From positions 2,464,001 through 2,528,000 of the forward strand of contig CM000207.1 of NCBI GenBank assembly GCA_000002445.1: a stretch of 64,000 nucleotides of DNA, given 5' to 3'. How positions within the stretch are numbered: position 1 is the stretch's first letter; the number at the start of each line of letters is the position of its first letter. The translations under genes were made by a program, and so were the position numbers. Source of the stretch: Trypanosoma brucei (Eukaryota). Of the stretch, positions 1 to 42,625 are shown in pieces. Under the pieces are notes generated by a model. It was not told the origin of the DNA and ran no database searches. It was given only the letters and a program-made list of their open reading frames with translations.

Positions 1-736
1 GCTGCTCAGTTATGTTTGGGTCCTTCATGTATATAATGGGGAAACCACGGAATATCTCTTCTGCCTTACTTTGTACGACAGGGTTGATAATACCCGGGAC
101 TATTCGCTGTAGTTCGTTTTTGATGCTGCCCTTGAAGATATCTATGATTCCGTTGATAAGGTTGTTGAGAAGCTGCATACCTCGAACAGCAACTGTTACA
201 TTTATTTCTCCAAGTTCAATCATCATATCCCTCACTGTTGCATTGAGCAGACCATCGTTTCTAGCGGATAAGTCCATAGCAAACGATGCATTCGCACCGC
301 GGATATCGGTAGCGGACGTGCCACTAGGGCACAGAAGCGGCCACCAACAAAGTGGACTGTAATAAAACTTAGTTTTTGGCACACTGGCTGCCATGTCCCA
401 CACCGAAACCAAAAGTTTATTCGGGCTCTTCAGTTTGAGGGACATGTTTCCAATCGTTATGTTTGATACCTGCATTTCTTCCAGCTTAATACCTTGCACA
501 CTTTGCTCAGGAACAGTAATGTTTCCGATAAGTTGTCTCAGCACGCGGTGAACCATGGGCACAGCAGAAGTCACGACGGATTCATCAACGGCAAATTTCA
601 CGCTACCGGGTGCGGAAGACACGGGCGCTTCTCCATACTGAATGCCGTGAACCTGACCGGATGCTGCAACAAAATACGGCGCCAGTACCACGGCGACAAA
701 AATTACCGTGTATATTAGAGTTGCAGCTCGTTGCAT
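1..736 (-). CDS. Partial CDS (N-terminal 245 codons; continues beyond window position 1): secreted/surface glycoprotein with cleavable signal peptide and BPI/LBP-like N-terminal barrel pattern (ESAG5-family-like)
   Basis: Manual reverse-complement translation from the ATG at 736-734 gives MQRAATLIYTVIFVAVVLAPYFVAASGQVHGIQYGEAPV... with no stop codon through position 1. It has a hydrophobic signal peptide and at least six N-x-S/T sequons. Its alternating hydrophobic beta-strand pattern (e.g. LLNNLINGIIDIFKGSIKNELQRIVPGIINPVVQ) resembles the N-terminal domain of BPI/LBP-fold proteins. It is absent from the ORF track only because it runs off the window edge. Confidence 0.55.
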   Translation of the reverse strand, partial: MQRAATLIYTVIFVAVVLAPYFVAASGQVHGIQYGEAPVSSAPGSVKFAVDESVVTSAVPMVHRVLRQLIGNITVPEQSVQGIKLEEMQVSNITIGNMSLKLKSPNKLLVSVWDMAASVPKTKFYYSPLCWWPLLCPSGTSATDIRGANASFAMDLSARNDGLLNATVRDMMIELGEINVTVAVRGMQLLNNLINGIIDIFKGSIKNELQRIVPGIINPVVQSKAEEIFRGFPIIYMKDPNITEQ

Positions 737-2364
737 TGATGAACTAATATATATTCGATCTACCCGACGAAAGCCACTACCTACAAAAGTAAGGTGAATT
801 TGTGTTAACCCAAACGGATGTCATACAAGAATCAGTTGCAACAAATAACTGTTGGTACAATCGATAAAAGATAGTGTAAAAATTTCCGAAAGATCATTAA
901 CGGTAAGTGTGTCCACTTCGGCAGGGTAAGTCGACACCGTTTAAAAAGTGAATAATATACAAAAAGAAATATATCACCTTCATCACATACTTACGACTAC
1001 TTGAAGTAACCTTCTAATGGTCATTGTTTGTCATCGATGCTTGACAGTTAAGCTCCGCAAAGTACATCTCGAACAAATATCTAACGAGACAAACAAAATT
1101 AAAAAGACTGGGTTACAACAAAGCGCCGCGTTGAAACAGTGTGGGCTGTCAATAGTTATTCTAACCGAAAAATGTCATGCTCCACCGTATCGAGTGGTGA
1201 CAGCATTGACGTACTGAACACATGTATGGAATAGTAACAACACCTTCCCATACTTCACTTTGTCCCTCACTTTAACGCACTGTATTGTTCATCACCTGAG
1301 CAAACACTCACTTCACTCAACCGACAGGTCTATGCAATATGAGTTAGAATCTAAGAAGCCAGTAGCTAAAATATATGAGAGGGCGTGAAGTCTTCAATGT
1401 CAACAGACGCGGCTCACTGTCATTACCCATTCCGAAACATGTTCATATCAATACCACCACTGTTTACATACCTTTGTCACGTCTTTCAGTGGTATCGCTT
1501 CAAATACAATATTCACTCCTGCTAACTGATGTCACGACAAAACATATTGATGGCGTTAGAGCCGTCGTCATTGCTGTCGCTGCGATTCTTCCCACAGATC
1601 ATAGCTATCCAACCACAAATTCTAGACGGTTTAAAAAAGAGGAAATGACCATGCGATCTTCTCAATAGCAACTGCTCCAGTCACATATTATCGAGAATAC
1701 AACACCCTAAAACATTCCCGTAAAGTAATGGTGTGTGCCCACCTATGACAAATATATTTGAACTCGTTAAAACCATAAGGTTTACATTTTTTAAAAAAAA
1801 AAAGTCATTCGTCCGTAAAGATAGCTTACCAAAGGTTAATGAATAATTGCCACTTTCACATCTCCTTGGCATCCATCATACCCGCTGTTCGTCACTTTCA
1901 GTCTTTTTTCCAGGTCCCCGCGTGGGCGATGGTATTCCTTATGAATCTTCCTCCACAATCCAAAAGTCCACAGGAAGCATGTTGATAATACATCAGCCGG
2001 TAATTCCCTTGATCCCCTCCTTTTTTCAGTAGTAGCCAACCCGCCTTCTGCAGGCAGAGTCGACAGTTGGTCGGTACACCTTTCCTCCTTAGTACTGACA
2101 TTAAATATCCGTAGACGCTTTTAGATGTGTCGAAATATATTGTGTATACGTATACATACGTATGCATATGCATATTACCACATAGTAGGATCGCGCAACG
2201 AGAATTCACCGCAGACATTTCTAAGCAACGCGTTTGTGGCACTTAGCTGCAAGCCTCGCCGGTTTAACCAAATCCACAATGAAATGCGCAAACGTGCCTA
2301 CAGGGAAGCACGTTACCAAAGCTCTCCACGCTCGTAGCACCTTCTGCAGCCCTTGTGTGTGTGT

Positions 2365-2378
2365 GGGGGGGGGGGGGG
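2365..2378 (+). repeat. G14 homopolymer tract (preceded by (TG)n) in divergent strand-switch region
   Basis: Direct count in sequence: gtgtgtgtgtg + 14 G. Confidence 0.9.
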
Positions 2379-5300
2379 CGATCCACCCAGTTGATCCGTT
2401 AGACGTCTCCCCCATTGTTTCTTTCTTTTTTTCCAGCATTGTAATGCCACCACACCCACACACCGGCGGCCACGGCCCCAACAAACTAAAGATCCCATTA
2501 AAATACGTGAGCGCGTGAGCGGCGGCGCACGTCAGCATAACAAGGCGGCGCAAAACTACTTTTATTGCATTACATCGGTTACCAGCGCGTATTTGGCGGC
2601 GTCCATATTTCTCTTTAGTTTCCCTTTCTCAGGGCACCTCGAATGCCCCACTGCGTTTCTTGAGGCGAGCAGGTTGCCTCAGTCCTGCCAATGAAAGTAG
2701 GGCGAAGGAAGGGCACTTCTTCCACCACCTCCAACAGTCAAGCCACTCCGATGTGGCTGAACTGTCGCCGCATTCGCCCCTGATACTTCCACAAAATTTA
2801 TAACAATCACTTCGCCAAACGGCAATAAGACCTGACTGCCCACCGCAGTTGAGGGGACGGGGCCACGCTGCAGCACCGAGGCACTCAAGTCCACCTCGGC
2901 GTTGCCGCGTTCCTCTACCATCTCCGTTACTGGATAGCGGCGGTGGGTCGGCGGAACTCGTTGTTGAAAAATATAAATAGACAGTTTCATGTAGTGGACC
3001 GCCGTAATTGAATCCGGGTGAGTTGTGTTGTGGCCGCAGTTGTTAGGAAAGCGGATTCGCTGCAGCCAACCTGCGGTTTATCCGAAATATCGCACTGTTG
3101 TTGGTCCTCAAACCGGGTCGGGGCGGTGAGGCGGTGGCGCGTGTGCTCAAAGGGGGAATGCCGGTTAATTGGACGCTTACGAGTTTGTGAATATTGACGT
3201 GAAGGCAACTGGTATTGCGATTTTTTGTTGGTAATGTTCTCCCCTCCCTTTCCTTCCTTCCTTCCCATTCCCTCAAGGAGACGGCAGGGGAAATGTCGAG
3301 GGTACGAGTTAGCTGTGGTGATGAACGCTTCAAAAATGTGTCCTAAACTTTTTAGATATCTTACTGCGGAAAGTGTGGTGCAACATAAATACAGTTGCGG
3401 TTAACCCCACACGACTTTGTGTTTTGGGAGGGTGCAAAACAAAAACCAGAGAAGTTTAAGCGCGCCACTACAAATTTAGATGGGACCCACATCCCTTCAC
3501 TTAGCAAATTGCAGCTTATCCCGCAGAACTTTCTGCAGCCTGAATGAAATGACCCTTACCTCGGTTGGATGATCACCGGTTGTGGTGAGTTGCTTCCAAG
3601 CAACTGGGAACCGGCTGATGATCTCGCTTAGGGATTCTTTGTGAAAAGGCGTGGGATCTATGTGACATTTCAGTGTAAAAAGGAAAAAAGAAAGTGGACG
3701 CCACGAAACTTGCCAAGAAAAATATTTGAATGTTAATGGGCAACGCACATTGCCCGCCACAAGATTCCAGTGGAAAAAACAACCAAGTGGTGAATATTTC
3801 GCTATTCTTACTGACAAATATGGGCAATATATTCGAGTGAAAAGTACTTAGCTTTTAAAGGATCTTCATAGTGTATCACTGATGGGCTCCGAGCAGTGAA
3901 TGCCCCCAGCTCCGGCGATAAACGCCGTCAGTGCAAATGGCAGCGCAGTGGATTTATTTTTTTCATGTTGCTGCTAATGTGGAAAGGTATGTAACATCAC
4001 ATGCAATAATGTGTTTTAATTTCGTCATGCAAGGGAGGGGTCATCCGCTTAGCGAAAACAAGCCATCAATGTGTTATCTATAACATATAACTTGTACATA
4101 GTGCGCTCAGGGAAATGGAGGTAAAAAGAAAACATGATATCGGAAGATACGACGCTGTTGTGCCTGGGTGCACAGATGAGTAACGAAACTGCGTTGAAAA
4201 CAGTCGTAACTGTTATTGGACACATAACTTTCAGTGTTTTTTTTTCAAAAATAAAAAACGAATAGTAATGCAGAAAAGTACTGAGTATGCACCACGGGAA
4301 TGGGGCACCAGCTCTGTTGGTTCCATTTTTCGGTTCTACTCAAATGTGTGTTATGTGTTACGAGCAAAAAAAACCGGGGCGAAGTATTGGACATTGTTGA
4401 TACTGTCATCGTGAGGTTCGGAGCGTGGTAATAAACTATTTACCCTCGTCCTAGTGACTGGATCGTTACGGGTGGAAGTAAGATGGTGTCGTTATACCTG
4501 TTTATGTTGGTTCGCTCTCGTGATATCATAATAAGGGATTCCACAATTATTATTATTATTTCGCTGCAGTTTCCCCCTCAGAAGTTGAAAACTCATGTGC
4601 TAAGTTTTCCTCCTCATTAGAGGCACTGTCTAGTGAATTCAAGCGTCGTGTGTGATCCGGTGTTGTGCAAATATGTCGTTGTGAACTTTGTTACCTGCCA
4701 CGAGCTTTCCTATGATATGGAGAACTTCGTAACCGTTGTGCGAATGAGATGAAGTCAATTTACTCTTCCGCTCGGGGTTGGTATTTTTTTTTTTTTTTTG
4801 CATCCCATGGCTTTGTGTCACCATAAATGATTGTGTCGTCCCATTATTTTACCTCTATAGTCGCTTCATTTCTAATGTGATCGTTGAGTTGATGGCCCCT
4901 TATCTTCTCTGTCAATCTTACAATAATCATCCTAGAAAAACTTTTATAGGTGATGATTCATTTCTGCTGTTGTGATAGCAACGACAATGCGAACTCTGCA
5001 ATACCAAAAAACGATTCGGGTGTGTGCTTCGGTAAGGTTATGAAGGAAGGAATGTAATTAACGTTTTGGTCCGTAAATGAACGTTCTCATCTTTGGCGTG
5101 TCCCAACACTCAGAGACTTCGATTCAGTTATGTATGCCATAAGTTCATTTGCATATGAAAAGATGTCGAATTAATGTCTAGTGGTTCTTGTGCTTTGTTC
5201 AACCATTCATTCGATCTTTCGGAGCACTCTGCACAATACTTCACTTTCGGTTTATGATATGTGCCCTTCTCCATCTGTCCTTGCTACTATGTTGCTCACT

Positions 5301-6643
5301 TGGAAATTTGGATCATAGTTGCAGTTCAATTCTTTCTCACATTTTTTTCCATGGCACGACGGCTGCCGTCCGTTGGCGTGATTTATCCTCTTGATGTCCA
5401 AATCCTAATCGTATTTCTAACCTTATAATGGTGGTTGTGGTGCTGTGTGGACATACTGACCGGCAGTGCATAATACCAATTGTGTACGATGTTTTGCATT
5501 GTTTATTTATTTTGAGCGTTAATTGGACCGAATACCTGTACCACCAGACCCATCCAAGGCTCACATGCTGTTCGGTCATGAGAAAAGTTTATGGTGCACT
5601 ACAGCGGAGGTGTTTGTGATATTTTCGGTGCAGATGTTTTACCGGTGACTTTCGGCAATTGTTGCTGTTGTCAAAAGCTTTTTGCACGCTCCGCGAGGGG
5701 ACTGATATGTGATATCTCTCACGTCGGTAGGTGTGCTGCTACCGGTTATGTGCAAAGTGATACCTGTATCAAATTTGACTGCTTGTTTGTAGTCTGTAGT
5801 ATTTGAGTTTGCTCATGGAGAGTTGTTGCTTGTTTGGTTTTAATTCGATCGTGTTTAACTTCTCCCTCAGCTAAGAGTGATGTATGAACTGGAGTATATG
5901 GGATTACCTGCGTGTGTGCGGCTCTCCTTTTTTATCCTTTACCTTTCCATCACGGCTATAACACCACTACTCAAATGCAGTTTTCTCCAGTGCGATGGGG
6001 ATATATGATTGCTCGCGTAGCCATCATTGGCATACTTTTTTTGCTGGGTAAACGCAGCGCGTTCCATTACCATAATCAGATGATGCGTATTTGATCAGCG
6101 CTGTTTATATCTATCCCCCGGTAGCTTCCTCCCTATAAATGAATCATGATGCAGCACAGTTTTTGTTCCTTAGGTTCACCTGCCATATTTGGTAGATTTT
6201 CATCACACATGTTCTAAAAGGGGGATTGTAGTGTTACGCATGCAAGTTCTTGTGTAGACGTTGGCATATGGAATATCAAGTGGCTGTTGCTGCTATTTTC
6301 AGGGGAAAAAAAAAAAAGAAACGTCATCACATGGTAGCGTTAACGTGACAGACGCCAGAGAAGGGAGGAAAAAAAATCAGTCCAAGTAAACAATAAGGAG
6401 CAGCGAGGTGGGAAGTTGTTAAAGGAAAAGGTGAAGCAGTGTTACGCGTGGTCTACTTTTGGTACATATGAGCGGCACTGCCGACGCATTATATACGCGC
6501 ATCAGATGGTATCCCCATGAAGAAACTCTGCGTTTGGGATTCAAAAAAGAACTTTTCACAACACATCTGGTGACAAATTGGTGCGTTGCGAAGAGTTATG
6601 CGCAGTAAAAGGAACATTTTGTGTCTTTAATAGTCCCGCTGTT

Positions 6644-6655
6644 GGGGGGGGGGGG
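6644..6655 (+). repeat. G12 homopolymer tract in divergent strand-switch region
   Basis: Direct count in sequence: gctgttGGGGGGGGGGGGattg. Confidence 0.9.
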
Positions 6656-8101
6656 ATTGTTAAATAAGTGTTTCTGGTGAGGTAAGATACATTACATAAT
6701 TGAACCACAGAAGGGAAATTGAGTAGCGTATTAAAAATTCTTCATGATATGTGTAAGTTCGGCTGGATTATCATCCTACTGAAATCATGTGACATGGATG
6801 ATGTTTGTGATTCGATGTGCTAAGTGTGAGGTGAGGTCATGCCTTGTTGTGTAATACCACATGGACATTCGGTCAATGTTTTTTTTTTTCGAACGGGTTG
6901 AAAAAAGAGCGCTCGCATGCACATCAGGTTTGTAATCACTGCAACGAATGCTTTATTGTGATTGAGAAGCGCGCATTGAGTGGGAGAGTACAACTCTCTA
7001 TCTCTCTCTGTGTGCGTGTGTTATGCGTGCTAAAGTGTATTATGTTCTATAACGGTGTCGATGGTGGCGCTCTGACAGCAGTGTCTATATATCACCGCAG
7101 TGGGTGTTGTGAACACGTGTGTATGTCCTTTGTGTTTTCAACTGAATTGTTGTGTTTGTTAGATAAAACTTTAAGAGTTCGTGTTCCATTAGTTGCACTG
7201 GAGAACTTCTCTAGCAATCGATGAAAGCGGTGATGTTGCTTGATTTCAAATGCTCATGCGACCAATGTGGAGCATTCGGTTGAGAAATGAAATACCCTTT
7301 TGTTTCTCTGTTTCTGGTGTGTAAAAACGCAGTGTGCTTACGGTGTCTCCTCGTGCCTCCTTTGTCTTTGCAAAAAAAAAAAAGACGTTGCACTTGACTT
7401 GTTTCCGGTTTTTGGCACATGTTGGGTTGAGAGTGAAAAGTAATGGGTAACTGGATATATCTTCCTTTTTTATCTAGGGGGGAAAAACAACTGTATGCGA
7501 GGGGGCTTAGTGTTATTATTTCATTGGAAAGTGGTTGACGGGTACTTGCCGGCGTGTGGTGCAAATTGTTTCCTTGCATAGTGCTGGGTGTAATCAGTGG
7601 TGGTATTTTTTTTTCCAAATGACGGGTGTGCACAAGGAACGAGTAGTAAGAGTGAAATACGGAGGCATGAGGTTCAGTGGAGCTAAAACTGTGCAGAAAT
7701 TGCTATTGGTCACTACGCCTATGAATTTTAAATGCTCAACTGGTGGGGGTACGGCGCAGGACTCGTGTATTCACTACCCCAAAAAGGTCCCACGAGGGGC
7801 CAACAACAGTGCTTGGAGGTCCGTTGGCGTCTTGTGGAACTCCGAATACACGGATTATGTGCCAAGTAATTTGTACAGTCGATATCTTTGTTTTTAGCCG
7901 CGAGTGCCGAGGCTTGGTCGTTGCGCATGTGCCAACAATCCGGTGGAGCAGCTATGAGCTGCGATACAGGCGCGTGCTTGCGTGCCACATCACTTCCCCC
8001 TTATTTGCCATTTTTTAATTACATAACTAATAGCGGTTCCTAAGGCGTTTTTAGCACCTATTTATTGGCGGCCGGGGCTTGTCCCCTTCTCACCATCACC
8101 A

Positions 8102-9121
8102 ATGCCAGCACCCGCCTCTGATGTTGTGGCTTGCGCCATCTGCTTGGAGCAATGGTCAGATCCTGTAGAACTATTGCCGTGTACGCATATATTTTGCCGA
8201 GGTTGTGTTTCAACTACAACTGTGTGTCCCATATGTCGCGCAGAGGTGACTGGGCGACGTACCGCTAACCGATACTTGGTAGATGCCTCTATGTCCCTAG
8301 TTAAAATGAAGGAACGGGATGAAAAGGCACGCGAGGAGGCGGAAAAATTGCTAAATGAAGTCATCGAGCAATCACAGGGGAAAATGTATAAGCCTACCGC
8401 GGCTGCCGGTGTGGGAGTTAACACACAGCCGCACAACCGGCGGATGAGGGTGGAAACGCTAAGAAGCACGCCTGATTATATTTTTAAGATTATACTCGTC
8501 GGTGATAGTTATGTTGGGAAGACCCGATTCTTGAAGAATCTCGTTGGTGCTATCGGCTTCGGGGATCAATGCGTCACCACCCTCAGCGTTGATGTCGTTA
8601 ATCATTACGTTATCGTTGATGGAAAGACAGTTCAGGTTTTAATGTATGATACTTGCGGCCAGGAACGTTTCCGAGCCATGACAGCACAGTTCTACCGTGA
8701 CGCCCACGGTGCCATAATGGTGTACGACACCACTCAAATTGGGAGTTTCGACAATATCGAAGTGTGGTTCTCGCAGCTCAACAGTTTTGGTTGTGAAAAT
8801 ACGAGCAAAATACTTGTCGGAAATAAATGTGATCTCCCCGAAAGAAGGGCCGTTGAAATTGGGCGGGCCAGAGCCCTGGCCGACAAACTGGGCGTTCCCT
8901 TTATAGAAACGAGCGCAATGACTGGTGCCGGAGTTGCCGTAGCAGTTGAGGCCTTAGTGAGAATGATTATGAGACAACAACCTGTTCCACTAGCCAGCCA
9001 ATGGGCAGGCAGTAAAAGCGGACATAGAAATGCAGTCAATTTGGAAAGACCCCGCCGGGAGAACGGCACCGGCAGACGGTCTGAGAGGAGCCAGAGAAAT
9101 GATAATTGTTGCTGCCAATAA
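8102..9121 (+). CDS. RING (C3HC4) zinc-finger / Rab-like small GTPase fusion protein, 339 aa, C-terminal CCCQ cysteine motif
   Basis: True ATG start preceded by a polypyrimidine tract (cttgtccccttctcaccatcacc). The N-terminus CAICLEQWSDPVELLPCTHIFCRGCVSTTTVCPICR is a C3HC4 RING. After a charged coiled-coil-like linker comes a complete Ras-superfamily G domain. Its motifs are G1 GDSYVGKT, switch I TLSVD, G3 DTCGQE, G4 GNKCD and G5 ETSAM. The overall similarity is to Rab1-type GTPases (KIILVGDS..VDGKTVQVLMYDTCGQERFRAMTAQFYRDAHGAIMVYD). The C-terminus ...NDNCCCQ is a candidate prenylation site. Confidence 0.85.
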   Translation: MPAPASDVVACAICLEQWSDPVELLPCTHIFCRGCVSTTTVCPICRAEVTGRRTANRYLVDASMSLVKMKERDEKAREEAEKLLNEVIEQSQGKMYKPTAAAGVGVNTQPHNRRMRVETLRSTPDYIFKIILVGDSYVGKTRFLKNLVGAIGFGDQCVTTLSVDVVNHYVIVDGKTVQVLMYDTCGQERFRAMTAQFYRDAHGAIMVYDTTQIGSFDNIEVWFSQLNSFGCENTSKILVGNKCDLPERRAVEIGRARALADKLGVPFIETSAMTGAGVAVAVEALVRMIMRQQPVPLASQWAGSKSGHRNAVNLERPRRENGTGRRSERSQRNDNCCCQ

Positions 9122-9532: not shown

Positions 9533-10720
9533 ATGCAGTGTCTCCGCTTCGTCGATGGTAAAAAGTGTTCAGTCAACACAGTGGGTGCATCCCTTTCTGC
9601 AGTGGCATGCGTGGTGGCGTTTATAGCCTTCATTGCTGAAATTAATTCTGAGGGTTGGCAATATAGGGGGAAGGTATGGTTAGATGCACCAACTAGTCGG
9701 CGAGTCCCATTTAGGAATCCGAGAGTCATTTTTGTTGTTGTTCAGACCCGACCCTCTCCAGGTTGGTGCAGAATGTTGATGACTGCTGTTGTCACGAATG
9801 TTTCTGTAATTTCTATTGGTATGGGTGGGAATTACAGTCACACCATCCGGGCAAACTGGTTATTGAACTTCTTGGATGATGAGGGTCTCCATGATGATGA
9901 TGTGTTAGTTATGTTTGATGGTGCGGACACATTCTTCACTGATGAGATCAATCGAAAAGAGATGCTAGACCCGTTCATAAAAATGTCTCCCCCACTGCCC
10001 AAATTCTTTAACCAAACGGCTATATACAGAGGTGACGCTTGGCCGCCCATGCTTCACATGGCAGAACCAGATTGTTATGCTCCCCAGTTGAACATCACAT
10101 ACAACCCGCAAAATGAGTCGCATTGGGATCGATGCGCAAGGTTTTACGCCATGGGCCTGTCAGAAGCGAAAACATTCGGTGCTGAGCGGCTTCTGGGGTT
10201 GCCACCTCCCGTGCGTGGACACCTCAACAGTGGAGGAATTGTGGGCCGGGTATGGGCGTATAAAGAGGCCTTTAATGTCTATTTAAAGTTCAGGGAGACA
10301 TCCTCTAAATGGTGGTGCGATCAGACCATGTGGACAATACTTTTCATTTGGAGCGCAGGAAATGCAACGGGTGTGGATCCCAAATACATAATACGGCGTG
10401 GAATAATTAGTCTTGACTATGACAAGAGATACTTTTACTACCCAACAGCGGCGTACAACACGCGTGCGATGATCGGCCACTTCACAGGAAATCCCCACCA
10501 GTGGTTACGGTATCTCCCGAAGTACTTTACTCGCCTTCCTTGGTATAGGAACCTTGCGGGAAACAGTACCTACAGGCAGAGTGTCGTGGAAGCATTACGA
10601 AATACGACCGTCATAACTTACAAATACACCCGGGAGAAGGTTTTGAAAAGTTATGAGGATGTCTGCAACGTTGAAGAAATGACCGACCCCGACTTCGTGG
10701 TCGACCCACTGGATAAGTGA
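9533..10720 (+). CDS. Hypothetical type II membrane protein (N-terminal signal-anchor, luminal domain with DxD-like FDGAD motif; possible Golgi glycosyltransferase)
   Basis: True ATG start. Pyrimidine-rich tracts upstream (9235-9270, 9412-9430) are consistent with a trans-splice acceptor. A short basic N-terminal tail is followed by one hydrophobic span (LSAVACVVAFIAFIA). The 395 aa ORF has no internal stops, and the luminal part carries multiple N-x-S/T sites. The function assignment is inference only. Confidence 0.6.
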   Translation: MQCLRFVDGKKCSVNTVGASLSAVACVVAFIAFIAEINSEGWQYRGKVWLDAPTSRRVPFRNPRVIFVVVQTRPSPGWCRMLMTAVVTNVSVISIGMGGNYSHTIRANWLLNFLDDEGLHDDDVLVMFDGADTFFTDEINRKEMLDPFIKMSPPLPKFFNQTAIYRGDAWPPMLHMAEPDCYAPQLNITYNPQNESHWDRCARFYAMGLSEAKTFGAERLLGLPPPVRGHLNSGGIVGRVWAYKEAFNVYLKFRETSSKWWCDQTMWTILFIWSAGNATGVDPKYIIRRGIISLDYDKRYFYYPTAAYNTRAMIGHFTGNPHQWLRYLPKYFTRLPWYRNLAGNSTYRQSVVEALRNTTVITYKYTREKVLKSYEDVCNVEEMTDPDFVVDPLDK

Positions 10721-16583: not shown

Positions 16584-18032
16584 TTACTGTGACTCATCTT
16601 TCGGGAGAGCCGAATTGACACCCAGGGCACACATACATCCAGCAAAGATACCAAACAGCAGTGAACTAACGGCCCAGTTGGCTGCTAGAGAACGTTCGCC
16701 AGCGGTCGTCAGCGAACCAGTACGCGGCGCGTAGACTCCCGCTAGACCCCCCACGTAGCCATACGTGAGCGACCAGAGGAAGCAAAGAATATAAGGGAAT
16801 GTCGTGCCCTTAATCACACTGTATGCGCAAAGCACAATTGGAATGACGAGCAACAAACGCGCAAACGTCCCAATCACCACAAAGAGCGGTGATGCGTGCA
16901 GAGTCTTGAACTGAACGAAAAGGCGCGCCACAAAATCTCCCAAGTTAAACATCATCGGAATGATCACCATATACCAGCCGTTGTCATCCGGCCCCAGTTT
17001 GACAGCAAAGAATACACCAGGGTAGATGAGGAAGGCGGTAAAGAACGCAATAAAGCACACGGCTAACATGGGCCAAACACGCCTGAACACAGACAACGCA
17101 CTCGCCTTCAACATCTGTTGCGAGTTCGTGATATTCTCAACCTGGTCCGTGTCCCTCATCGTGTCAGGGTCTACAGTGGAAGTCATCACGTTGCTCTTGC
17201 CCGCGTTGCAATCCGCTTTCAAATCGTCATCCTGGTCGGCCGGACCCTTTCCTAAGCTACTCGGTTCATTATCATCTCCAGCGTCATCACCTTCAACAGC
17301 ATTCCCTTTCCTCGCCGCGTAACGAAAGTCTGCTGTATACTTCATGGCGTAAGGGTTCTTCCTCAGCAGCAGCAGAAGACCACAAGAAATCGACTGCATA
17401 ATCATGACCAACCCAAAGTATATGCGTGACTGAGTGAGCCTACTCGCGACGCGGTCTTCTGTACGCTTGAAGTTACTCTCCGTGGAAGCTTTAATAACAA
17501 TCGCAAACGTCGACGTGATAACACCACACACTGAAACACCCCACACGTACGCACTCAAAAACTTCGTTGGAAAGGGACCGGCAAGTGCAACGGCACCGGA
17601 GCTGCAAAGTGCAGTGGAAGCTCCGTTTATCAAACCAATCAGTATAATGGTTACCCTGGCACCGGTTTCCGTTGTTTTTCCGATGGTAACCATCATCACA
17701 GAAAATACTAAGATAATCGGAAAGACAAGACCAATATAGAGGCGAAGGGTTATGGGAATCCGCTTTCCAAAGTTTGTGAGCATCAGTGACACTACCAAAC
17801 ACTCCACAATAAACGTCGTCGCAAGATAGTACGTGAAGACATTTTTCCAGAAAAATTTCTGCTCTTCCGTCTCCAGCTTGATGTTCTCGCCATCCTTGGC
17901 CGCGAAAAGGTAGAACTGGAGGAAGAACTCCAGGAACGACAAGACCGTGTTCGACACCACCATCACCGACATCCCAAAACACATGAAGGTGATATAGGCA
18001 AGGAGTTCATGCACAGAACCGAAGCCAAGCAT
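16584..18032 (-). CDS. Equilibrative nucleoside transporter (ENT/SLC29 family) of the kinetoplastid nucleoside/nucleobase transporter type
   Basis: The track ORF (16584..18068) starts at TTG; the first in-frame ATG is at 18032 (MLGFGSVHELLAYITFMCFGMSVMVV...). There are about 11 predicted TM helices, with a large hydrophilic acidic loop between the TM6 and TM7 equivalents (EGDDAGDDNEPSSLGKGPADQDDD...). This is the standard ENT topology. The N-terminus resembles the conserved MLGF... start of trypanosomatid NT/AT transporters (from memory, not verified). Confidence 0.85.
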   Translation of the reverse strand: MLGFGSVHELLAYITFMCFGMSVMVVSNTVLSFLEFFLQFYLFAAKDGENIKLETEEQKFFWKNVFTYYLATTFIVECLVVSLMLTNFGKRIPITLRLYIGLVFPIILVFSVMMVTIGKTTETGARVTIILIGLINGASTALCSSGAVALAGPFPTKFLSAYVWGVSVCGVITSTFAIVIKASTESNFKRTEDRVASRLTQSRIYFGLVMIMQSISCGLLLLLRKNPYAMKYTADFRYAARKGNAVEGDDAGDDNEPSSLGKGPADQDDDLKADCNAGKSNVMTSTVDPDTMRDTDQVENITNSQQMLKASALSVFRRVWPMLAVCFIAFFTAFLIYPGVFFAVKLGPDDNGWYMVIIPMMFNLGDFVARLFVQFKTLHASPLFVVIGTFARLLLVIPIVLCAYSVIKGTTFPYILCFLWSLTYGYVGGLAGVYAPRTGSLTTAGERSLAANWAVSSLLFGIFAGCMCALGVNSALPKDESQ

Positions 18033-18740
18033 CCTTCCAATTTCAGCCAGCACACCTTTGAGTAACAACTAACCTTCTACGAAGCAAGGTGAAAGGGCAA
18101 GAAAAATGGTCATACATGTCGATATTACCATTTATCACATTAGCATGCCTCTCCTAAAGAAAAAAAACGTTTCAAGCATTAGACACAAAGCGTTCCCCCC
18201 GTGTATACGCTTAACGACCGTTAACTTTGAAGTTTTACCCACGATCGCACGTGTAATCCTCGGGAATTTTAGTCAACCTTTCTAACAAATATCGGTACTC
18301 ACAATTCATATTGCTTAAGTCCTCTAAACGCTCTCTTCGACTACAACTCATTTTACATTTGGTAAAACTGTAGGGAAAATTACACATGATACTAAAATAT
18401 TTGTTAAATCATCGGTATTAATGAAAAAAAAAATTAAGACAAGTATATTGAAAGACACATATATGTATAGAGTAGGGGTAGGCGTATACTGTGAATATAC
18501 CCTGGACAACAAGTCTTTACTTTCTTAAAGTTTTGTGTCCCTTTCCCCCACCCCAGCACACACCACCCTTGTGCGCAGCCATTTCAGCCATTTGACGTTT
18601 CTCTTGTGTTCTGTCCCTTCAGTAGGTCCCCCTTCCACATCCACATACACCTGCAGTCCCCTCTGCTAATGTTTGCCCACACGCAACCGTTGTAAAAGTG
18701 GGAGGTTTAATTGCACCAACACTCTCGCTTGAAAGATTCA

Positions 18741-27503: not shown

Positions 27504-29017
27504 TTGCCGGGTGCTACTTCATTTTTGTGCGACTATTACCGACGGTTTTACGCTGCTGTGAACAACACTGAGAAAATTGGTGGCGTGTGGTCCCGTGGAA
27601 AAGAAACTCGTGGAATATATTATTTACCTCCACTCTTCCACCAACCACGGCCTCAGGTACTGAATTTGGAGGGCGGAGATGTCTCTGACTCAGTACTTGA
27701 GAGGATCTCCAAAACAAAGTCGCTGCAGTCACTTAACTTGTCAAAATGTTGTCGTATAACCGACATATCAGCATTATCATCCCTCCCGACACTGGAAGAA
27801 CTGAATATTAGCCGTTCTATAATAATTAAAAGTGGTTGGGAGGCACTCGGCAAGTTGACTCGGCTACGCGTGGCAATTATTTCCTTAAGTGATGTTGCTA
27901 ACGAAGGAATATGTCTCCTCAGCGGGTGCAAATATCTCAGAAATTTGCAACCGATCCGGTGTTACGTTTTGTCCAACATTGAGGCGGTAAACAACATCAA
28001 TTCACTGGAGGAGCTCACCGTTGAGAATTGTGTGGACATTAAGGAAGGTCTGCTCAAGGTTGGAATGCTACCAAGGCTACGGGTACTGGCGTTGAGGCAC
28101 GTAAAACTCAGTTTTTTTCTCTCAGTTAACTAGGAGAGAGAAAATCACTGGTGAAACTCACTATCAAAGGATCTAAGGAACTCTGCGACATCAAACTTAT
28201 TTCCAACATTGCAACACTTAGGGAATTGAAAGTCGCCTATTGTGACAGATTATTAAACGACGTAGGGGATCTTAGGAAACTGCTATGGCTTAATGTACTG
28301 AGACTCCGCTATTTCAAGGTGGGAAATAGCTGTTTTGAGAGTGTCTGCACCATGCGCTCGTTGAAATCACTTGACGTCGCCTACTCAAAGAAATTAACAG
28401 ATATATCTCATATATCAAACCTTACGGCACTGGAGGAATTGAATCTGAGCGGATGTTACCTCATAATTTCAGGCTGGGAAGCACTAAGCGAATCACCACG
28501 ACTTCGTGTGCTCAACTTGGAATCCGCCAGAGTTACGACGCGTTACGATGGACATTATATCAGCAGATGCAAATCCCTCGTCACACTCAACCTTGAATCG
28601 TGTTATATGACCGATGCTTCATGTCTTGCTATTATCAAGACACTGGAGGAGTTGCATATAGGGAAATCCAAAGAGCTAACGCAGGGGTTTAGTGCACTTT
28701 TCACTCTTCTGAGGTTGCGCATTCTTAACCTGATTTGTTCTCTCATTACAGATGAAGATCTCAGGGAAATTCAACCACCCCATACCATTGAGGAACTCAA
28801 TCTTTCTTATTGTGAAGAGCTCAATGATATTACACCACTTGGGAGAATAAAATCAATTAAAAAATTGCATCTCCGTCAGAGACATGATGTCAGAAGGCCC
28901 ACAGAAGGATTCAGAAGTCTTTTGGAATTGCCATGTCTTTCTTGGGTTGACCTAGACAACGTGTGTGGTTGGTCTGATGTTTCTTGTGAACTGAGAAAAA
29001 GGAGGGTACATACCTAA
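27504..29017 (+). pseudogene. ESAG8-like leucine-rich repeat protein (LRRP) pseudogene: lacks ATG and N-terminal RING, one frameshift near 28131-28151
   Basis: Two ORFs in different frames (27504..28133 begins at TTG directly after a TGA; 28151..29017). Both consist of tandem ~24-residue LRRs of the ESAG8 type (LNLSKCCRITDISALSSLPTLEELNISRS; LDVAYSKKLTDISHISNLTALEELNLSGCYLI; LNLSYCEELNDITPLGRIKSIKKLHL). No in-frame ATG near the 5' end. Confidence 0.8.
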
Positions 29018-41181: not shown

Positions 41182-42625
41182 ATGATGATGCGCGCTACAA
41201 CGGTGGCTTCCTTACTAGTTTTAACTTTGCATGCAACAAGGCAAACTGCTGCAAACAAAAAAGCAATCAAAGTACAAGGATTTGTGAAGATGTGCACGCT
41301 TTCCAAAAATCTCAGACCGTGCAGGCGTACGCAACCAATAGACTAAAAAAATGGAAGATGATGATTGCAGATCTCAATGATCTCTGCGAGGACCTAACAA
41401 TTCTAAACAAAAAGTAGCGAAAAGTGCCTGAAGTCGCGACACCAGCTTTAATAAGGCTCTTAAGGCATGAGGCAAAAGCGTTAGAACACAAGTATCAGAC
41501 CCTGGAAGAAACAGCACCACTGGCGGGCTCACTTTCGGCACAGGCAGCAGGGGCAATGGACGAAGCAGCAGCTACTTTCTACGCAGCAACCAAAAACGGC
41601 GGCAGCGGCAAATACTACCTTGACCAGGACGGAACGGCCAACAAACTGGCCACAGCAACAGATCTAGCAGGATTCATGACCGAAGAAAGCGCCCCAGTAG
41701 CAGCAGCAGCAGACACAGCGGCAGTCGAAGTCAAGCCGTCCGATATAACAACCGCAGCGGGCACGGGAAGTGACTGCTTACTCACGCAAACGGACAGCAA
41801 TGGCGGTTATATCAACAGTGACGGCATGACCACGGGCATCAAATGGGCCGGCGGCCTTCTAACGTTCAGCACGAACCAATTAACAAACAATCCCTGGACT
41901 GATACGTCAGCGGCGTTAGCGACAGCACCGGTGCTAGAGCAGGCGGCACGACAGCTGGCAACCATATCAACAAAGTGGAGCCACACGAGCGCCGCAATAG
42001 ATAACCTCCTAAAACTCAAAAAGCCCACCGAACAAACTTTCACTGACATCGAGACCAACGAAAATGTCCTGAACCCTGGAGGCAACGACAAGGCACTAAA
42101 GGTAACAAAGGAACAACTAGAGCAGATCAGGCAAAAAGTAAATAATTACAGAGAACCACTCGCCCGTGACGGGAAACTAGACTCAAGCAGAAATAGTTTT
42201 CACCTCCAAGAACTGACGACAAACACTACAGTTACAATTGAAAAAGTCACCGCAGAATGCAACAAACACACTCAGGGAAAGCAAAGCTACGAGACAAAGG
42301 AAGAAGAATGTAATAAGGCAAAAGACAAAAAAAGTGAATGTGGAAAAAAAACTGGGTGCACTTACGACGGCAGTAAGCCAGCTGGCAAAAAATGAACATT
42401 GAGTGAAGAAACCAAACCAAGCATCGGCAAGAGAAACAGCAAACCAAGAAATAGAAGGAAATGATGAGAAAAAAGGGGAGAAATTTGCAGGGAAAGAACA
42501 AAAATACTGAAAAGATAGCTTCAAATGTAAAGGAAAAAGTGCAGGGATCTCGGTTTTCTCATCAATAAGAATTCTGCTCTGAGTATGGCTGCTGTTTTTG
42601 TGAGCTTTGTAGCATTTTAAGAATT
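41182..42625 (+). pseudogene. VSG: VSG pseudogene (full length about 1.44 kb, frameshifted)
   Basis: An N-terminal signal peptide and a VSG-type mature N-terminus sit in one frame (MMMRATTVASLLVLTLHATRQTAANKKAIKVQGFVKMCTLSKNL; ORF 41152..41346). The main body is in a second frame (41418..42395; the track start 41424 is GTG) and ends in the Cys-rich CTD ...CNKAKDKKSECGKKTGCTYDGSKPAGKK. A GPI-signal-like tail follows in a third frame (...GISVFSSIRILL / DSSFLINKNSALSMAAVFVSFVAF-type at about 42540-42625). No 70-bp repeat upstream. Confidence 0.85.

What the first reader, a model, noticed from the sequence alone, without database searches (positions are those of the whole stretch)
8102..9121. Single gene fusing a C3HC4 RING finger to a complete Rab-type GTPase
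The ORF begins with an unambiguous RING (CAICLEQWSDPVELLPCTHIFCRGCVSTTTVCPICR). After a charged linker it continues into a full Rab1-like G domain (GDSYVGKT, DTCGQE, GNKCD, ETSAM) with a Cys-rich C-terminus (CCCQ). RING E3 domains and Rab GTPases are normally separate proteins (e.g. Rab-interacting RING proteins). A covalent fusion would couple membrane-targeted GTPase switching directly to ubiquitin-ligase activity. The G3 motif has Cys in place of the canonical Ala (DTCGQE), which could alter nucleotide handling. The next gene in the array is an ESAG8-like LRR protein that has lost its RING, which makes RING-domain shuffling in this lineage worth a look.
Basis: seen in the sequence. Interest (0 to 1): 0.6.

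Follow-up and report, generated by a model that had tools for sequence, protein, structure and literature searches.

The report
Trypanosome Rab1B carries a hidden RING
The gene is real and is the Trypanosoma brucei gene already known as Rab1B, whose reference annotation starts at an internal methionine and so hides an N-terminal RING ubiquitin-ligase domain that would make it a membrane-anchored, GTP-switched ligase; whether that RING is translated and active is still untested.

Summary
Window 8102-9121 (+) is one 339-aa ORF with a canonical C3HC4 RING (aa 11-45), a charged linker, a complete but divergent Rab1-like G domain (aa 129-290) and a CCCQ tail.

The gene is not new. It is T. brucei TREU927 Tb09.244.2070 / Tb927.9.15930, "TbRab1B"; the published array probe matches 67/67. 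The deposited TREU927 model has 276 aa and starts at Met64, which removes the RING. The T. b. gambiense and T. equiperdum models have 339 aa.

Met1 is most likely the true start:
- A T. brucei RING paralog aligns from its own Met1 through residue 87, crossing Met64 (E = 4e-22).
- A conserved polypyrimidine tract and AG sites lie 50-70 nt upstream of ATG 8102.
- Four out-of-frame ATGs precede Met64.

The RING is TRIM-like and belongs to an N-terminal cassette shared with an ESAG8-type protein. Full-length relatives were found only in the T. brucei group.

Most likely function (inferred): a prenyl-anchored RING E3 controlled by the GTPase cycle, analogous to TRIM23 and Rab40.

Caveats: no RNA or protein evidence was available, and recent selective constraint on the RING is not shown.

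The parts
7993..8016 (+). Polypyrimidine tract (CTTCCCCCTTATTTGCCATTTTTT), the putative trans-splicing signal for this gene
   Evidence: Pyrimidine scan. The tract is invariant in all four T. brucei-group genomes aligned. Its function is inferred from the general rule of kinetoplastid trans-splicing and was not measured.
8032..8054 (+). First three AG dinucleotides after the tract (8032, 8043, 8053), the candidate spliced-leader acceptor sites. They would give a 5' UTR of about 50-70 nt with ATG 8102 as the first AUG.
   Evidence: All three are conserved in four genomes. Inferred, not measured.
8102..9121 (+). Complete 339-aa coding sequence of TbRab1B (Tb09.244.2070 / Tb927.9.15930), including the stop codon
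   Evidence: ORF list. The same 339-aa ORF is called in T. b. gambiense and two T. equiperdum assemblies. The array probe matches 67/67 at 8577-8643.
8132..8236 (+). C3HC4 RING finger, Cys11 to Cys45 (ligands C11, C14, C27, H29, C32, C35, C42, C45)
   Evidence: Pfam RING models above cut-off. Only C3HC4 pattern in six frames of the window. PDB matches to active E3 RINGs RNF4, TRIM21, TRIM25, TRIM56 and BIRC7. Ligands are at the same residue numbers as in paralog P0274.
8237..8362 (+). Post-RING segment, aa 46-87: Arg46 (linchpin position), a TRIM-like helix motif RTANRYLVDAS, and the start of the charged linker (EKAREEAEKLLNEV). Homologous to the paralog and spanning Met64.
   Evidence: BLASTP against P0274 covers aa 1-87. 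The TRIM21 RING plus flanking helix aligns to aa 8-79. The ESAG8-type P0213 aligns to aa 11-77.
8291..8293 (+). Met64 codon, the start used by the deposited TREU927 gene model (276 aa). Most likely an internal codon.
   Evidence: P0122 and P0124 (276 aa) begin here. Four out-of-frame ATGs (8121, 8152, 8233, 8283) lie between 8102 and 8291. Homology to three other RING proteins runs across it.
8363..8443 (+). Junction segment, aa 88-114, with no detectable homolog outside the T. brucei group; the presumed fusion seam
   Evidence: In the exhaustive search only the T. brucei cluster covers aa 1-126. Rab homology starts at about aa 120.
8444..8446 (+). Met115 codon, a possible relic of the ancestral Rab start codon
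   Evidence: It lies 14 residues before Lys129. In 36 of 42 ordinary Rab homologs, 7-16 residues precede the aligned Lys. Inference only.
8486..8971 (+). Rab-type G domain, aa 129-290: G1 GDSYVGKT (8501-8524), switch I Thr160, G3 DTCGQE (8648-8665), G4 NKCD, G5 TSAM
   Evidence: Pfam Ras E = 6.5e-42. Rab1A is the best PDB match. Column composition of the G boxes. It deviates at 20 of 68 conserved Rab1 columns.
8972..9106 (+). Hypervariable C-terminal tail, aa 291-335, the most variable coding segment among strains
   Evidence: 8 of 141 sites are variable in aa 293-339, against 6 of 498 in the G domain (p = 0.004).
9107..9118 (+). CCCQ terminus, a double-cysteine (CCXX-type) prenylation motif
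   Evidence: Sequence. Homologs end in CC, CCS, CCSS, CCGR, CCHR and similar. Prenylation itself is inferred from the established behaviour of Rab C-termini.
9533..10720 (+). Immediate downstream gene (context only): ESAG3-family protein, 395 aa
   Evidence: Exact sequence match to EAN77399.1, 'ESAG protein, putative'; the gambiense ortholog is named ESAG3. Tb927.9.15940 is listed as ESAG3.

Best explanation
This is the T. brucei gene known as Rab1B (Tb927.9.15930).

What it is. Its real product is most likely the full 339-aa protein that starts at ATG 8102. The parts, in order, are: a TRIM-like C3HC4 RING (aa 11-45) with a flanking helix; a charged helical linker; a short lineage-specific seam; a divergent Rab1-like GTPase domain; and a CCCQ prenylation motif. 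The reference TREU927 model, which starts at Met64, cuts the RING off.

How it arose. A gene fusion put an N-terminal RING cassette in front of a Rab1-derived gene. The same cassette is found on a T. brucei RING/coiled-coil protein and on an ESAG8-type protein. Met115 may be the former Rab start codon.

How it probably works (inferred). The C-terminus is prenylated, so the Rab domain inserts into an endomembrane in its GTP state and can be extracted in its GDP state. That places a RING E3, and the E2~ubiquitin it recruits, on the membrane only while the switch is on. The result would be spatially and temporally gated ubiquitylation of nearby membrane or coat proteins, mainly in bloodstream forms, where the mRNA is up-regulated.

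Shown: ORF, domains, gene identity, homologies and conservation of the ORF. Inferred: the trans-splice site, translation from Met1, E3 activity, prenylation and the coupling of the two activities.

Rough confidence by step: gene identity 0.97; translation from Met1 as a fusion 0.75; GTP-gated membrane E3 mechanism 0.35.
For: Identity:
- The 67-mer array probe for Tb09.244.2070 'Rab1b' matches window 8577-8643 at 67/67.
- 'Rab1B (Tb927.9.15930)' is listed.
- The neighbours match exactly: EAN77399.1 (ESAG) and EAN77403.1 (nucleoside transporter 1).
- Window aa 64-339 are 100% identical to the TREU927 protein.

Fusion and start codon:
- The 339-aa ORF is intact in four genomes, with all eight zinc ligands kept.
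- BLASTP against paralog P0274 aligns Met1 with Met1 and continues to aa 87, across Met64 (40% identity, E = 4e-22).
- TRIM21 aligns to aa 8-79 and the ESAG8-type P0213 to aa 11-77. Both also cross Met64.
- A conserved polypyrimidine tract (7993-8016) is followed by AGs at 8032, 8043 and 8053. There is an in-frame stop at 8024, and ATG 8102 is the first ATG downstream. Four out-of-frame ATGs precede Met64.

RING competence:
- Five Pfam RING models pass their cut-offs.
- The closest solved structures are active E3 RINGs.
- Ile13, Pro43 and Arg46 occupy the E2-contact and linchpin positions; the concept of the linchpin is in PMC12326332.
- All eight ligands are retained at only 38-47% identity to its relatives.

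GTPase competence:
- G134, G139, K140, T141, T160, D183, G186, Q187, N241, K242, D244, S271 and A272 are all retained.
- The G domain is the least variable segment among strains.

Expression: the Rab1b probes are 3.5-7 times higher in bloodstream forms, and the mRNA is among the most abundant small-GTPase mRNAs.

Precedents for the logic: TRIM23 and Rab40-Cullin5.
Against: - No RNA-seq, spliced-leader or peptide evidence could be obtained. The supplements of two transcriptome papers hold no entry for the gene, and a third has no supplement held.
- The reference TREU927 annotation starts at Met64.
- A second, short pyrimidine run (8082-8091) is followed by AG 8107. If that AG were used, ATG 8102 would be removed.
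- Among four strains the RING segment is as variable as the proximal upstream DNA (4.2% vs 3.0%) and more variable than the G domain (1.2%; p = 0.03). Variable sites show no third-position bias, and gene-wide dN/dS is about 0.5-1 on very few changes.
- The chromosome 5 copies are annotated as pseudogenes.
- The G domain deviates at 20 of 68 conserved Rab1 positions. These include a bulky Tyr in the P-loop and most RabF motifs, so normal Rab cycling with GEF, GAP and GDI is not assured.
- The structure prediction was uninformative (pLDDT 36).
- An RNAi screen of all Rabs in procyclic forms reported autophagy effects only for Rab1A, Rab2B and Rab11.
Confidence: 0.6

Rival explanations
1. The reference annotation is right. 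The mRNA is trans-spliced inside or just after the RING-coding stretch, or translation starts at Met64 or Met115. The cell then makes only an N-terminally extended Rab, and the RING-coding stretch is an untranslated relic.
For: The TREU927 models EAN77398.1 and CAJ16188.1 start at Met64. The short pyrimidine run 8082-8091 followed by AG 8107 could remove ATG 8102. The RING segment is no more conserved among strains than the proximal upstream DNA. Met115 sits where ordinary Rabs start.
Against: Homology to three independent RING proteins runs through Met64, and with P0274 it starts at Met1 of both proteins. All eight ligands and the reading frame are intact in four genomes. Four out-of-frame AUGs lie before Met64. 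No polypyrimidine tract lies between 8110 and 8290. Annotators of three other genomes call the 339-aa ORF.
Confidence: 0.17
2. The fusion protein is made, but it is a young, lineage-restricted, subtelomere-proximal gene under relaxed constraint and on its way to becoming a pseudogene. The RING-Rab combination then has no selected coupled function.
For: Full-length relatives occur only in the T. brucei group. dN/dS is about 0.5-1 with no third-position bias. Two chromosome 5 copies are called pseudogenes. The gene sits at a core/subtelomere boundary among ESAG-family genes, pseudogenes and VSGs. The RabF motifs are strongly degenerate.
Against: All nucleotide-contact residues and all zinc ligands are retained despite divergence to about 40-47% identity from the nearest relatives. 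The coding sequence is far less variable than the distal flanks (26/1017 vs 89/1100 sites; p = 1e-8). The G domain is the most conserved segment. The mRNA is abundant and stage-regulated. At least two intact copies are kept in TREU927.
Confidence: 0.13
3. The protein is translated as a fusion and then cleaved quickly, as reported for the trypanosome FYVE-GTPase TbFRP. The RING fragment and the Rab fragment would then act separately.
For: [quoted passage not shown] The aa 88-120 seam has no detectable homolog outside the T. brucei group, as expected of a non-conserved linker.
Against: There is no direct evidence for cleavage of Rab1B. TRIM23 and Rab40 work as intact proteins.
Confidence: 0.06
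4. The RING is translated but is not catalytic. It would serve as a dimerisation or partner-binding module, like BARD1- or BMI1-type RINGs or possibly ESAG8's, and so tether or oligomerise the Rab instead of ligating ubiquitin.
For: The TRIM-like flanking helix is the element that mediates RING dimerisation in TRIM proteins (general knowledge). BMI1 and BARD1 RINGs are among the PDB hits.
Against: The best hits are catalytic RINGs (RNF4, TRIM21, TRIM25, TRIM56, BIRC7). The Ile13, Pro43 and Arg46 positions fit E2~Ub engagement.
Confidence: 0.04

Closest known systems
TRIM23 / ARD1 (metazoan RING - B-box - coiled-coil - ARF GTPase)
   Same: An N-terminal TRIM-type RING E3, then a helical region, then a C-terminal small GTPase domain of the Ras superfamily, all in one polypeptide. 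It is described as a protein with both E3 and GTPase activity. The Rab1B RING with its flanking helix aligns best, as a single stretch, with a TRIM RING, TRIM21.
   Different: Rab1B has no B-boxes; Pfam finds none. Its GTPase is Rab-type, not ARF (Ras 143 bits vs Arf 28.8 bits). Membrane attachment would be by C-terminal prenylation, not by an N-terminal myristoylated helix. The origin is independent: TRIM23 is metazoan-specific, and this gene was found only in the T. brucei group.
Rab40 subfamily (Rab + SOCS box recruiting Cullin5)
   Same: A Rab GTPase physically coupled to ubiquitin-ligase machinery, giving localised ubiquitylation of targets.
   Different: Rab40 has a C-terminal SOCS box that recruits a separate cullin-RING ligase. 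Here the RING itself is part of the polypeptide and is N-terminal. No SOCS box was detected.
TbFRP (Euglenozoan FYVE - Rab18-like GTPase)
   Same: A trypanosome-lineage fusion of an N-terminal zinc-binding domain with a C-terminal Rab-like GTPase. [quoted passage not shown]
   Different: FYVE binds PI3P and is not an E3 domain. FRP is conserved throughout Euglenozoa, whereas RING-Rab1B was found only in the T. brucei group. FRP is cleaved after synthesis, which is unknown for Rab1B.
T. brucei RING/coiled-coil protein XP_846369.1 (P0274/P0275) and the ESAG8-type RING+LRR protein (P0213)
   Same: They carry the same N-terminal RING cassette, with identical ligand spacing, a [A/P]N-x-x-L motif after the RING, and the RING within about 10 residues of Met1. 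Identity is 40% over 93 aa (E = 4e-22) with P0274 and 38% over 68 aa (E = 7e-15) with P0213.
   Different: The C-terminal bodies differ: coiled-coil plus a Gly/Ala-rich hydrophobic segment in P0274, leucine-rich repeats in P0213, and a Rab GTPase here. No DNA-level similarity is left.
Canonical Rab1 (human Rab1A/B, yeast Ypt1, T. brucei Rab1A Tb927.8.890)
   Same: Best-scoring subfamily (Rab1A 146.9 bits, Ypt1 134.5, other Rabs 131 or less). All G boxes and the double-Cys terminus are present.
   Different: Identity is only about 34-48%. It deviates at 20 of 68 positions that are at least 90% conserved in Rab1 homologs, concentrated in RabF1-F4. It has Tyr137 in the P-loop, Cys185 in G3 and Met273 in G5, and a 125-residue N-terminal extension that contains a RING.

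Membership tests
RING-type (C3HC4) zinc finger / RING E3 ligase domain | Eight zinc ligands in the order C3HC4 with canonical spacing (C-x2-C-x9-39-C-x1-3-H-x2-3-C-x2-C-x4-48-C-x2-C) | tested here: met
   C11-x2-C14-x12-C27-x-H29-x2-C32-x2-C35-x6-C42-x2-C45. It is the only such pattern in six frames of the window.
RING-type (C3HC4) zinc finger / RING E3 ligase domain | Profile match above curated family thresholds | tested here: met
   PF13445 34.7 bits (cut-off 25.2), PF13920 33.5 (27), PF00097 32.1 (21), PF14634 30.2 (27.9), PF13639 29.9 (27.3).
RING-type (C3HC4) zinc finger / RING E3 ligase domain | E2-contact hydrophobic residue after the first Cys, Pro in the last CPxC pair, and a cationic linchpin residue after the last Cys | tested here: met
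   Ile13, Pro43 and Arg46 align with the corresponding residues of RNF4 and TRIM21 in the PDB alignments. The functional meaning rests on established RING biochemistry.
RING-type (C3HC4) zinc finger / RING E3 ligase domain | E2-dependent ubiquitin transfer | not testable with these tools
   Needs an in vitro ubiquitylation assay.
Rab family of small GTPases | Five G boxes: GxxxxGK[ST], switch I Thr, DxxGQ, NKxD, SA[K/x] | tested here: met
   GDSYVGKT, T160, DTCGQE, NKCD and TSAM. Every column that is invariant in the 42 homologs is retained.
Rab family of small GTPases | Closest to Rabs rather than Ras, Rho, Arf or Ran | tested here: met
   The 60 PDB hits shown are all Rab or Ypt proteins. 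Pfam Ras scores 143 bits against 28.8 for Arf.
Rab family of small GTPases | Rab-family motifs RabF1-F5 (IGVDF, KLQIW, RFrsiT, YYRGA, LVYDIT) | tested here: inconclusive
   The query reads LSVDV, QVLMY, RFRAMT, FYRDA and MVYDTT. They are recognisable but degenerate. Eleven of the 20 deviations from conserved Rab1 columns fall in RabF1-F4 and G3.
Rab family of small GTPases | C-terminal double-cysteine prenylation motif | tested here: met
   The protein ends in CCCQ (CCXX type). Homologs end in CC, CCS, CCSS or CCGR. Actual geranylgeranylation was not testable.
Rab1 subfamily (functional ortholog of Rab1/Ypt1) | Orthology to Rab1 and conservation of Rab1-specific positions | tested here: inconclusive
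   Rab1A is the top PDB hit, 12 bits above Ypt1 and 15 or more above other subfamilies. However, 20 of 68 conserved positions differ (ordinary homologs: mean 3.5, maximum 16). T. brucei has a separate canonical Rab1A. No phylogeny was made.
TRIM family, specifically TRIM23-like | RING + B-box(es) + coiled-coil (the tripartite motif) | tested here: not met
   The RING is present and TRIM-like, but no B-box model matches. A coiled-coil is only suggested by a low-confidence predicted helix at aa 53-93.
TRIM family, specifically TRIM23-like | C-terminal ARF-family GTPase domain | tested here: not met
   The GTPase is Rab-type.
Rab40 subfamily | SOCS box C-terminal to the Rab domain | tested here: not met
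   No SOCS-box match in Pfam. The tail aa 291-335 is low-complexity and variable.
ESAG8 | N-terminal RING followed by leucine-rich repeats | tested here: not met
   The RING is related (38% over 68 aa to the ESAG8-type P0213), but no LRR is present.

The most novel reading that the evidence does not exclude
African trypanosomes of the T. brucei group have evolved a self-contained, GTP-switchable ubiquitin ligase. It would be a prenylated Rab1-derived switch that carries its own TRIM-like RING, is up-regulated in the bloodstream stage, and is genomically linked to ESAG-family genes. It would ubiquitylate surface or secretory-pathway cargo, for example invariant surface glycoproteins, whose E3 ligase has to my knowledge not been identified. 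This would be the first RING-Rab ligase shown to work as a unit and a lineage-specific regulator of the parasite surface.
Probability: 0.18. Interest if true: 0.8.

Novelty: new variant of a known kind. Interest (0 to 1): 0.5.

Why it matters
TbRab1B has been treated as an ordinary early-secretory Rab, and the reference strain's deposited model omits 63 residues that encode a RING.

If the long form is made, three things follow:
1. The reference annotation and any reagents built on it (RNAi is unaffected, but tagging, antibodies and recombinant protein are) describe a truncated protein.
2. Trypanosomes have independently reached the TRIM23/Rab40 solution of wiring a small-GTPase switch to ubiquitylation, here in the most compact form: RING and Rab in one 38-kDa chain.
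3. A stage-regulated, membrane-targeted E3 becomes a concrete candidate for the poorly known ubiquitylation step that controls turnover of bloodstream-form surface proteins.

The finding also shows one N-terminal RING cassette sitting on three different protein bodies in T. brucei (Rab, LRR/ESAG8-type, and coiled-coil). That is a clear case of domain shuffling in a genome without introns.

Tried and rejected
1. Hypothesis that the RING was recently copied from ESAG8, prompted by the ESAG8-ESAG3 order in expression sites and the ESAG3 gene downstream. Rejected as stated. The closest relative is the paralog P0274 (70.5 bits vs 44.6 for the ESAG8-type P0213), the three RINGs are about equally distant (38-41%), and no DNA similarity remains. 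I first assumed ESAG8 was absent from the RING relatives. Checking showed that this was wrong, and the conclusion was revised to a shared cassette.

2. Identification as RabX3. Rejected: RabX3 is Tb11.01.6670.

3. The search for homologous proteins with the N-terminal 126 aa failed once (time-out). The second run returned nothing, not even the 98% ortholog, so that result is uninformative. The same tool with P0274 found only P0274's own cluster.

4. Structure prediction. The permitted 3-sequence alignment gave mean pLDDT 36, so the model was unusable and no fold search was run.

5. Spliced-leader evidence. Supplements of Kolev 2010 and Nilsson 2010 have no entry for the gene. Siegel 2010 has no supplement held. 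Parsons 2015 and Ackers 2005 are not held.

6. Selection test within the T. brucei group. There are too few substitutions (6-17 per pair) to be decisive.

7. Bacterial promoter/terminator scan and NCBIfam scan. These are irrelevant for a eukaryotic locus and added nothing.

8. DNA of the second TREU927 copy (P0124), of the TREU927 model itself (P0122) and of P0213 could not be retrieved.

9. P0251 looked like an independent eukaryotic RING-Rab. Its contig is bacterial in gene content, so it is not evidence for the architecture in other eukaryotes.
Full report
Window 8102-9121 (+) is a single 339-aa ORF that starts with ATG and is preceded by an in-frame stop at 8024. Pfam places a Ras-family domain at aa 129-290 (E = 6.5e-42), and five RING models pass their curated thresholds over aa 10-51. 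The 60 PDB hits shown (of 860 at E <= 0.001) are all Rab or Ypt proteins, with Rab1A first. The zinc ligands follow C-x2-C-x12-C-x-H-x2-C-x2-C-x6-C-x2-C. No other C3HC4 pattern exists in any of the six frames of the 64-kb window.

**2. What the gene is.** The best database hit is a 90%-identity cluster of T. brucei-group proteins. In that cluster T. b. gambiense and two T. equiperdum assemblies carry 339-aa proteins. T. b. brucei TREU927 carries two 276-aa entries, EAN77398.1 and CAJ16188.1, that begin at Met64. The window is 100% identical to EAN77398.1 over aa 64-339.

The 67-nt microarray probe published for Tb09.244.2070 ('Rab1b') matches window 8577-8643 at 67/67. A 2024 preprint lists 'Rab1B (Tb927.9.15930)'.

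The neighbours agree with this placement. ORF 9533-10720 is exactly EAN77399.1, an ESAG-family protein that is named ESAG3 in gambiense, and Tb927.9.15940 is listed as ESAG3. The nucleoside-transporter ORF at 16584-18068 (-) is EAN77403.1, 'nucleoside transporter 1', Tb927.9.15980. Further on lie a frame-shifted LRR pseudogene and VSG genes.

The window is therefore the core-to-subtelomere boundary near the right end of T. brucei chromosome 9, and the finding concerns the gene known as TbRab1B. In the papers I could search, Rab1B is treated as an ordinary early-secretory Rab. No paper links it to a RING or zinc finger. The original Rab-family paper was not available.

**3. Is the RING part of the protein?** This is the key question, because the reference model excludes it. 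No transcript or peptide data could be obtained, so the case is indirect, but several lines agree:
- (a) The 339-aa frame and all eight ligands are intact in four genomes.
- (b) An exhaustive HMMER search with aa 1-126 found a T. brucei paralog as the closest non-self relative. It is a 278-286-aa RING/coiled-coil 'conserved hypothetical' protein, XP_846369.1 / XP_011775317.1. BLASTP aligns Met1 of Rab1B with Met1 of this protein and continues to residue 87 (40% identity, E = 4e-22). The zinc ligands sit at identical residue numbers.
- (c) Two further homologies also run across Met64: the TRIM21 RING with its flanking helix (aa 8-79) and an ESAG8-type RING+LRR protein (aa 11-77, E = 7e-15). Met64 is therefore an internal residue of a conserved module.
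- (d) A 24-nt polypyrimidine tract (7993-8016) is followed by AGs at 8032, 8043 and 8053, all invariant in four genomes. This is the arrangement expected for a trans-splice acceptor, and ATG 8102 is the first ATG downstream.
- (e) To reach Met64, a ribosome would have to pass four out-of-frame ATGs, and no pyrimidine tract lies between 8110 and 8290.

Against this: a short pyrimidine run (8082-8091) precedes AG 8107, and splicing there would remove ATG 8102. I put translation from Met1 at about 0.75.

**4. Anatomy and origin of the N-terminal module.** Residues 1-87 comprise the RING, Arg46 directly after the last Cys (the linchpin position of active RING E3s, with the concept in PMC12326332), a TRIM-like post-RING helix (RTANRYLVDAS, against LRPNRQLANMV in TRIM21), and the start of a charged stretch (EKAREEAEKLLNEV).

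The same RING subfamily (C..CL..W..P.EL.PC.HIFC..C...CP.CR...[PA]NR.L) heads many unnamed protist proteins whose C-terminal parts differ: EF-hands, ubiquitin, WW plus CCCH, NAP. In T. brucei it heads three different bodies:
- coiled-coil plus a Gly/Ala-rich hydrophobic segment (P0274)
- leucine-rich repeats (P0213, the ESAG8 architecture)
- the Rab domain

The three RINGs are about equally distant from one another (38-41%), and no DNA similarity remains. The cassette is therefore old and is not a recent copy of ESAG8.

Residues 88-114 have no detectable homolog outside the T. brucei group and look like the fusion seam. Met115 lies 14 residues before Lys129, within the range at which ordinary Rabs start, so it may be the former Rab start codon. 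That is an inference.

**5. The G domain.** All nucleotide-contact residues that are invariant in 42 Rab1-type homologs are kept. The domain nevertheless differs at 20 of 68 positions that are at least 90% conserved (ordinary homologs: mean 3.5, maximum 16). These differences concentrate in switch I, the interswitch region and switch II, which hold the RabF1-F4 motifs.

Three changes sit in G boxes:
- Tyr137 in the P-loop, where homologs have only G, S, A or N. By my own alignment this is the position equivalent to Ras Gly13.
- Met273 in place of Lys in G5.

The protein probably still binds nucleotide, but with altered kinetics and altered partner specificity. That is an inference. The CCCQ end fits the CCXX class of Rab prenylation motifs.

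**6. Distribution and selection.** Full-length relatives were found only in the T. brucei group, both in the word-indexed search and in the exhaustive search of 1.84 billion representatives. The array annotation lists a second copy (Tb09.v4.0017) and two chromosome 5 'Rab pseudogenes'. One of these, Tb927.5.4590, has a locus number directly before the ESAG3 gene Tb927.5.4600. This suggests that a Rab1B-ESAG3 unit was duplicated.

Among four strains, the fraction of variable sites is as follows:

| Segment | Variable sites |
|---|---|
| Coding sequence, whole | 26/1017 |
| Distal flanks | 89/1100 (p = 1e-8 vs coding sequence) |
| G domain | 1.2% |
| RING segment | 4.2% (p = 0.03 vs G domain) |
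| Proximal upstream | 3.0% (not different from RING) |

Pairwise dN/dS is about 0.5-1, based on only 6-17 changes per pair. Recent constraint on the RING is therefore not demonstrated. The argument for constraint is the retention of all eight ligands and the E2-contact positions at only 38-47% identity to relatives.

The mRNA is reported to be abundant. The cross-hybridising probes are 3.5-7 times higher in bloodstream forms.

**7. Mechanism and rivals.** Best explanation: a prenyl-anchored, nucleotide-gated RING E3. The Rab module decides when and on which membrane the RING, with the E2~ubiquitin it recruits, is present. The flanking helix and linker may dimerise the RING as in TRIM proteins. 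The domains and homologies are shown; the activity and the coupling of the two domains are inferred.

Rivals:
- The RING is not translated because the protein starts at Met64 or Met115 (0.17).
- The fusion is made but is functionally decaying (0.13).
- The protein is cleaved after translation, as TbFRP is (0.06).
- The RING is a non-catalytic dimerisation or binding module (0.04).

**8. Comparison with known systems.** The protein works most like TRIM23 (a RING E3 with an ARF GTPase) and Rab40 (a Rab with a SOCS box that recruits Cullin5). It is a member of neither: it has no B-box, no ARF domain and no SOCS box. It passes the tests for a RING domain and for a Rab-family GTPase, with degenerate RabF motifs. 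Membership of the Rab1 subfamily proper is inconclusive.

Within trypanosomes the nearest precedent for the architecture is TbFRP, a FYVE domain joined to a Rab18-like GTPase. [quoted passage not shown] This gene extends that theme to a Rab with an integral RING.

One apparent second example, P0251 (RING + F-box + Ras-like), is encoded among bacterial genes and is probably a bacterial effector.

**9. Verdict.** However, the gene is already catalogued as TbRab1B, and the 339-aa form is already annotated in sister subspecies. What appears to be unrecognised, within the literature I could search, is that 'Rab1B' carries a TRIM-like RING that the reference model truncates. I class it as a new variant of a known kind (small GTPases coupled to E3 ligases), of moderate interest (0.5), with clear and inexpensive experiments that would settle it.

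Noticed in passing
L004 5001-6152 (JGI metagenome contig Ga0598259_0000734); also L005 643-1794: P0251 is a 383-aa protein with RING + F-box + a Ras-like domain that has a degenerate P-loop, no NKxD motif and a CLMS terminus. Its flanking genes are typically bacterial (MacB/FtsX ABC transporter, CDP-alcohol phosphatidyltransferase, resolvase, a nucleotidyltransferase toxin-antitoxin pair). It looks like a eukaryote-mimicking effector of a bacterium.
   Followed up: partly
window 8291 (Met64), compared with GenBank EAN77398.1 / CAJ16188.1: The deposited TREU927 gene models for Rab1B start at Met64 and omit the RING, while the gambiense and equiperdum models include it. In the other direction, the T. 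equiperdum model of the RING paralog (354 aa) is extended by 68 residues at the N-terminus relative to the 278-286-aa brucei and gambiense models.
   Followed up: yes
window 9533-10720 (+): The gene directly downstream is an ESAG3-family gene (EAN77399.1) with no Pfam match. In the literature, the chromosome 5 'Rab pseudogene' Tb927.5.4590 has a locus number directly before the ESAG3 gene Tb927.5.4600. This suggests that a Rab1B-ESAG3 pair was duplicated as a unit.
   Followed up: partly
window 27504-29017 (+): Leucine-rich-repeat sequence split over two reading frames (27537-28106 in frame 3, 28130-28906 in frame 2), so it is a pseudogene. It is only about 24-32% identical to the LRRs of the ESAG8-type protein P0213 and has no RING remnant upstream. 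The only ESAG8-like RING match in the window is the Rab1B RING itself.
   Followed up: yes
P0126-P0150 (unnamed Logan, JGI and ENA proteins): These belong to a RING subfamily marked by C..CLE.W.DP.EL.PC.H.FC, then PNR.L.N, then usually V.C..C.W.G (a second zinc-finger-like motif). This module is fused to very different C-terminal domains: EF-hands, ubiquitin, WW+CCCH, NAP. It behaves as a promiscuous N-terminal cassette in uncharacterised protists.
   Followed up: partly
window 41424-42395 and 59984-61339 (+): VSG-type ORFs: an A-type fragment (PF00913) and a 451-aa B-type VSG (PF13206, E = 4e-59). The exact sequence of the latter is not in the protein collection. The window therefore runs into a subtelomeric VSG array.
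   Followed up: no
window 1-8000: The 8 kb upstream of Rab1B has no ORF longer than 140 aa on either strand, which is unusual for the gene-dense trypanosome core. Strain variability there is high (7% variable sites at -1000 to -301). It is probably degenerate or pseudogenic sequence.
   Followed up: no
P0274 vs P0275 (T. brucei RING paralog): The gambiense and brucei versions differ by an 8-residue indel inside a Gly/Ala-rich hydrophobic segment (...GPLGAVAGTALGAVAAAAFAG...). That segment could be a membrane-associating region. If so, the paralog and Rab1B would both be membrane-tethered RING proteins that use different anchors.
   Followed up: no
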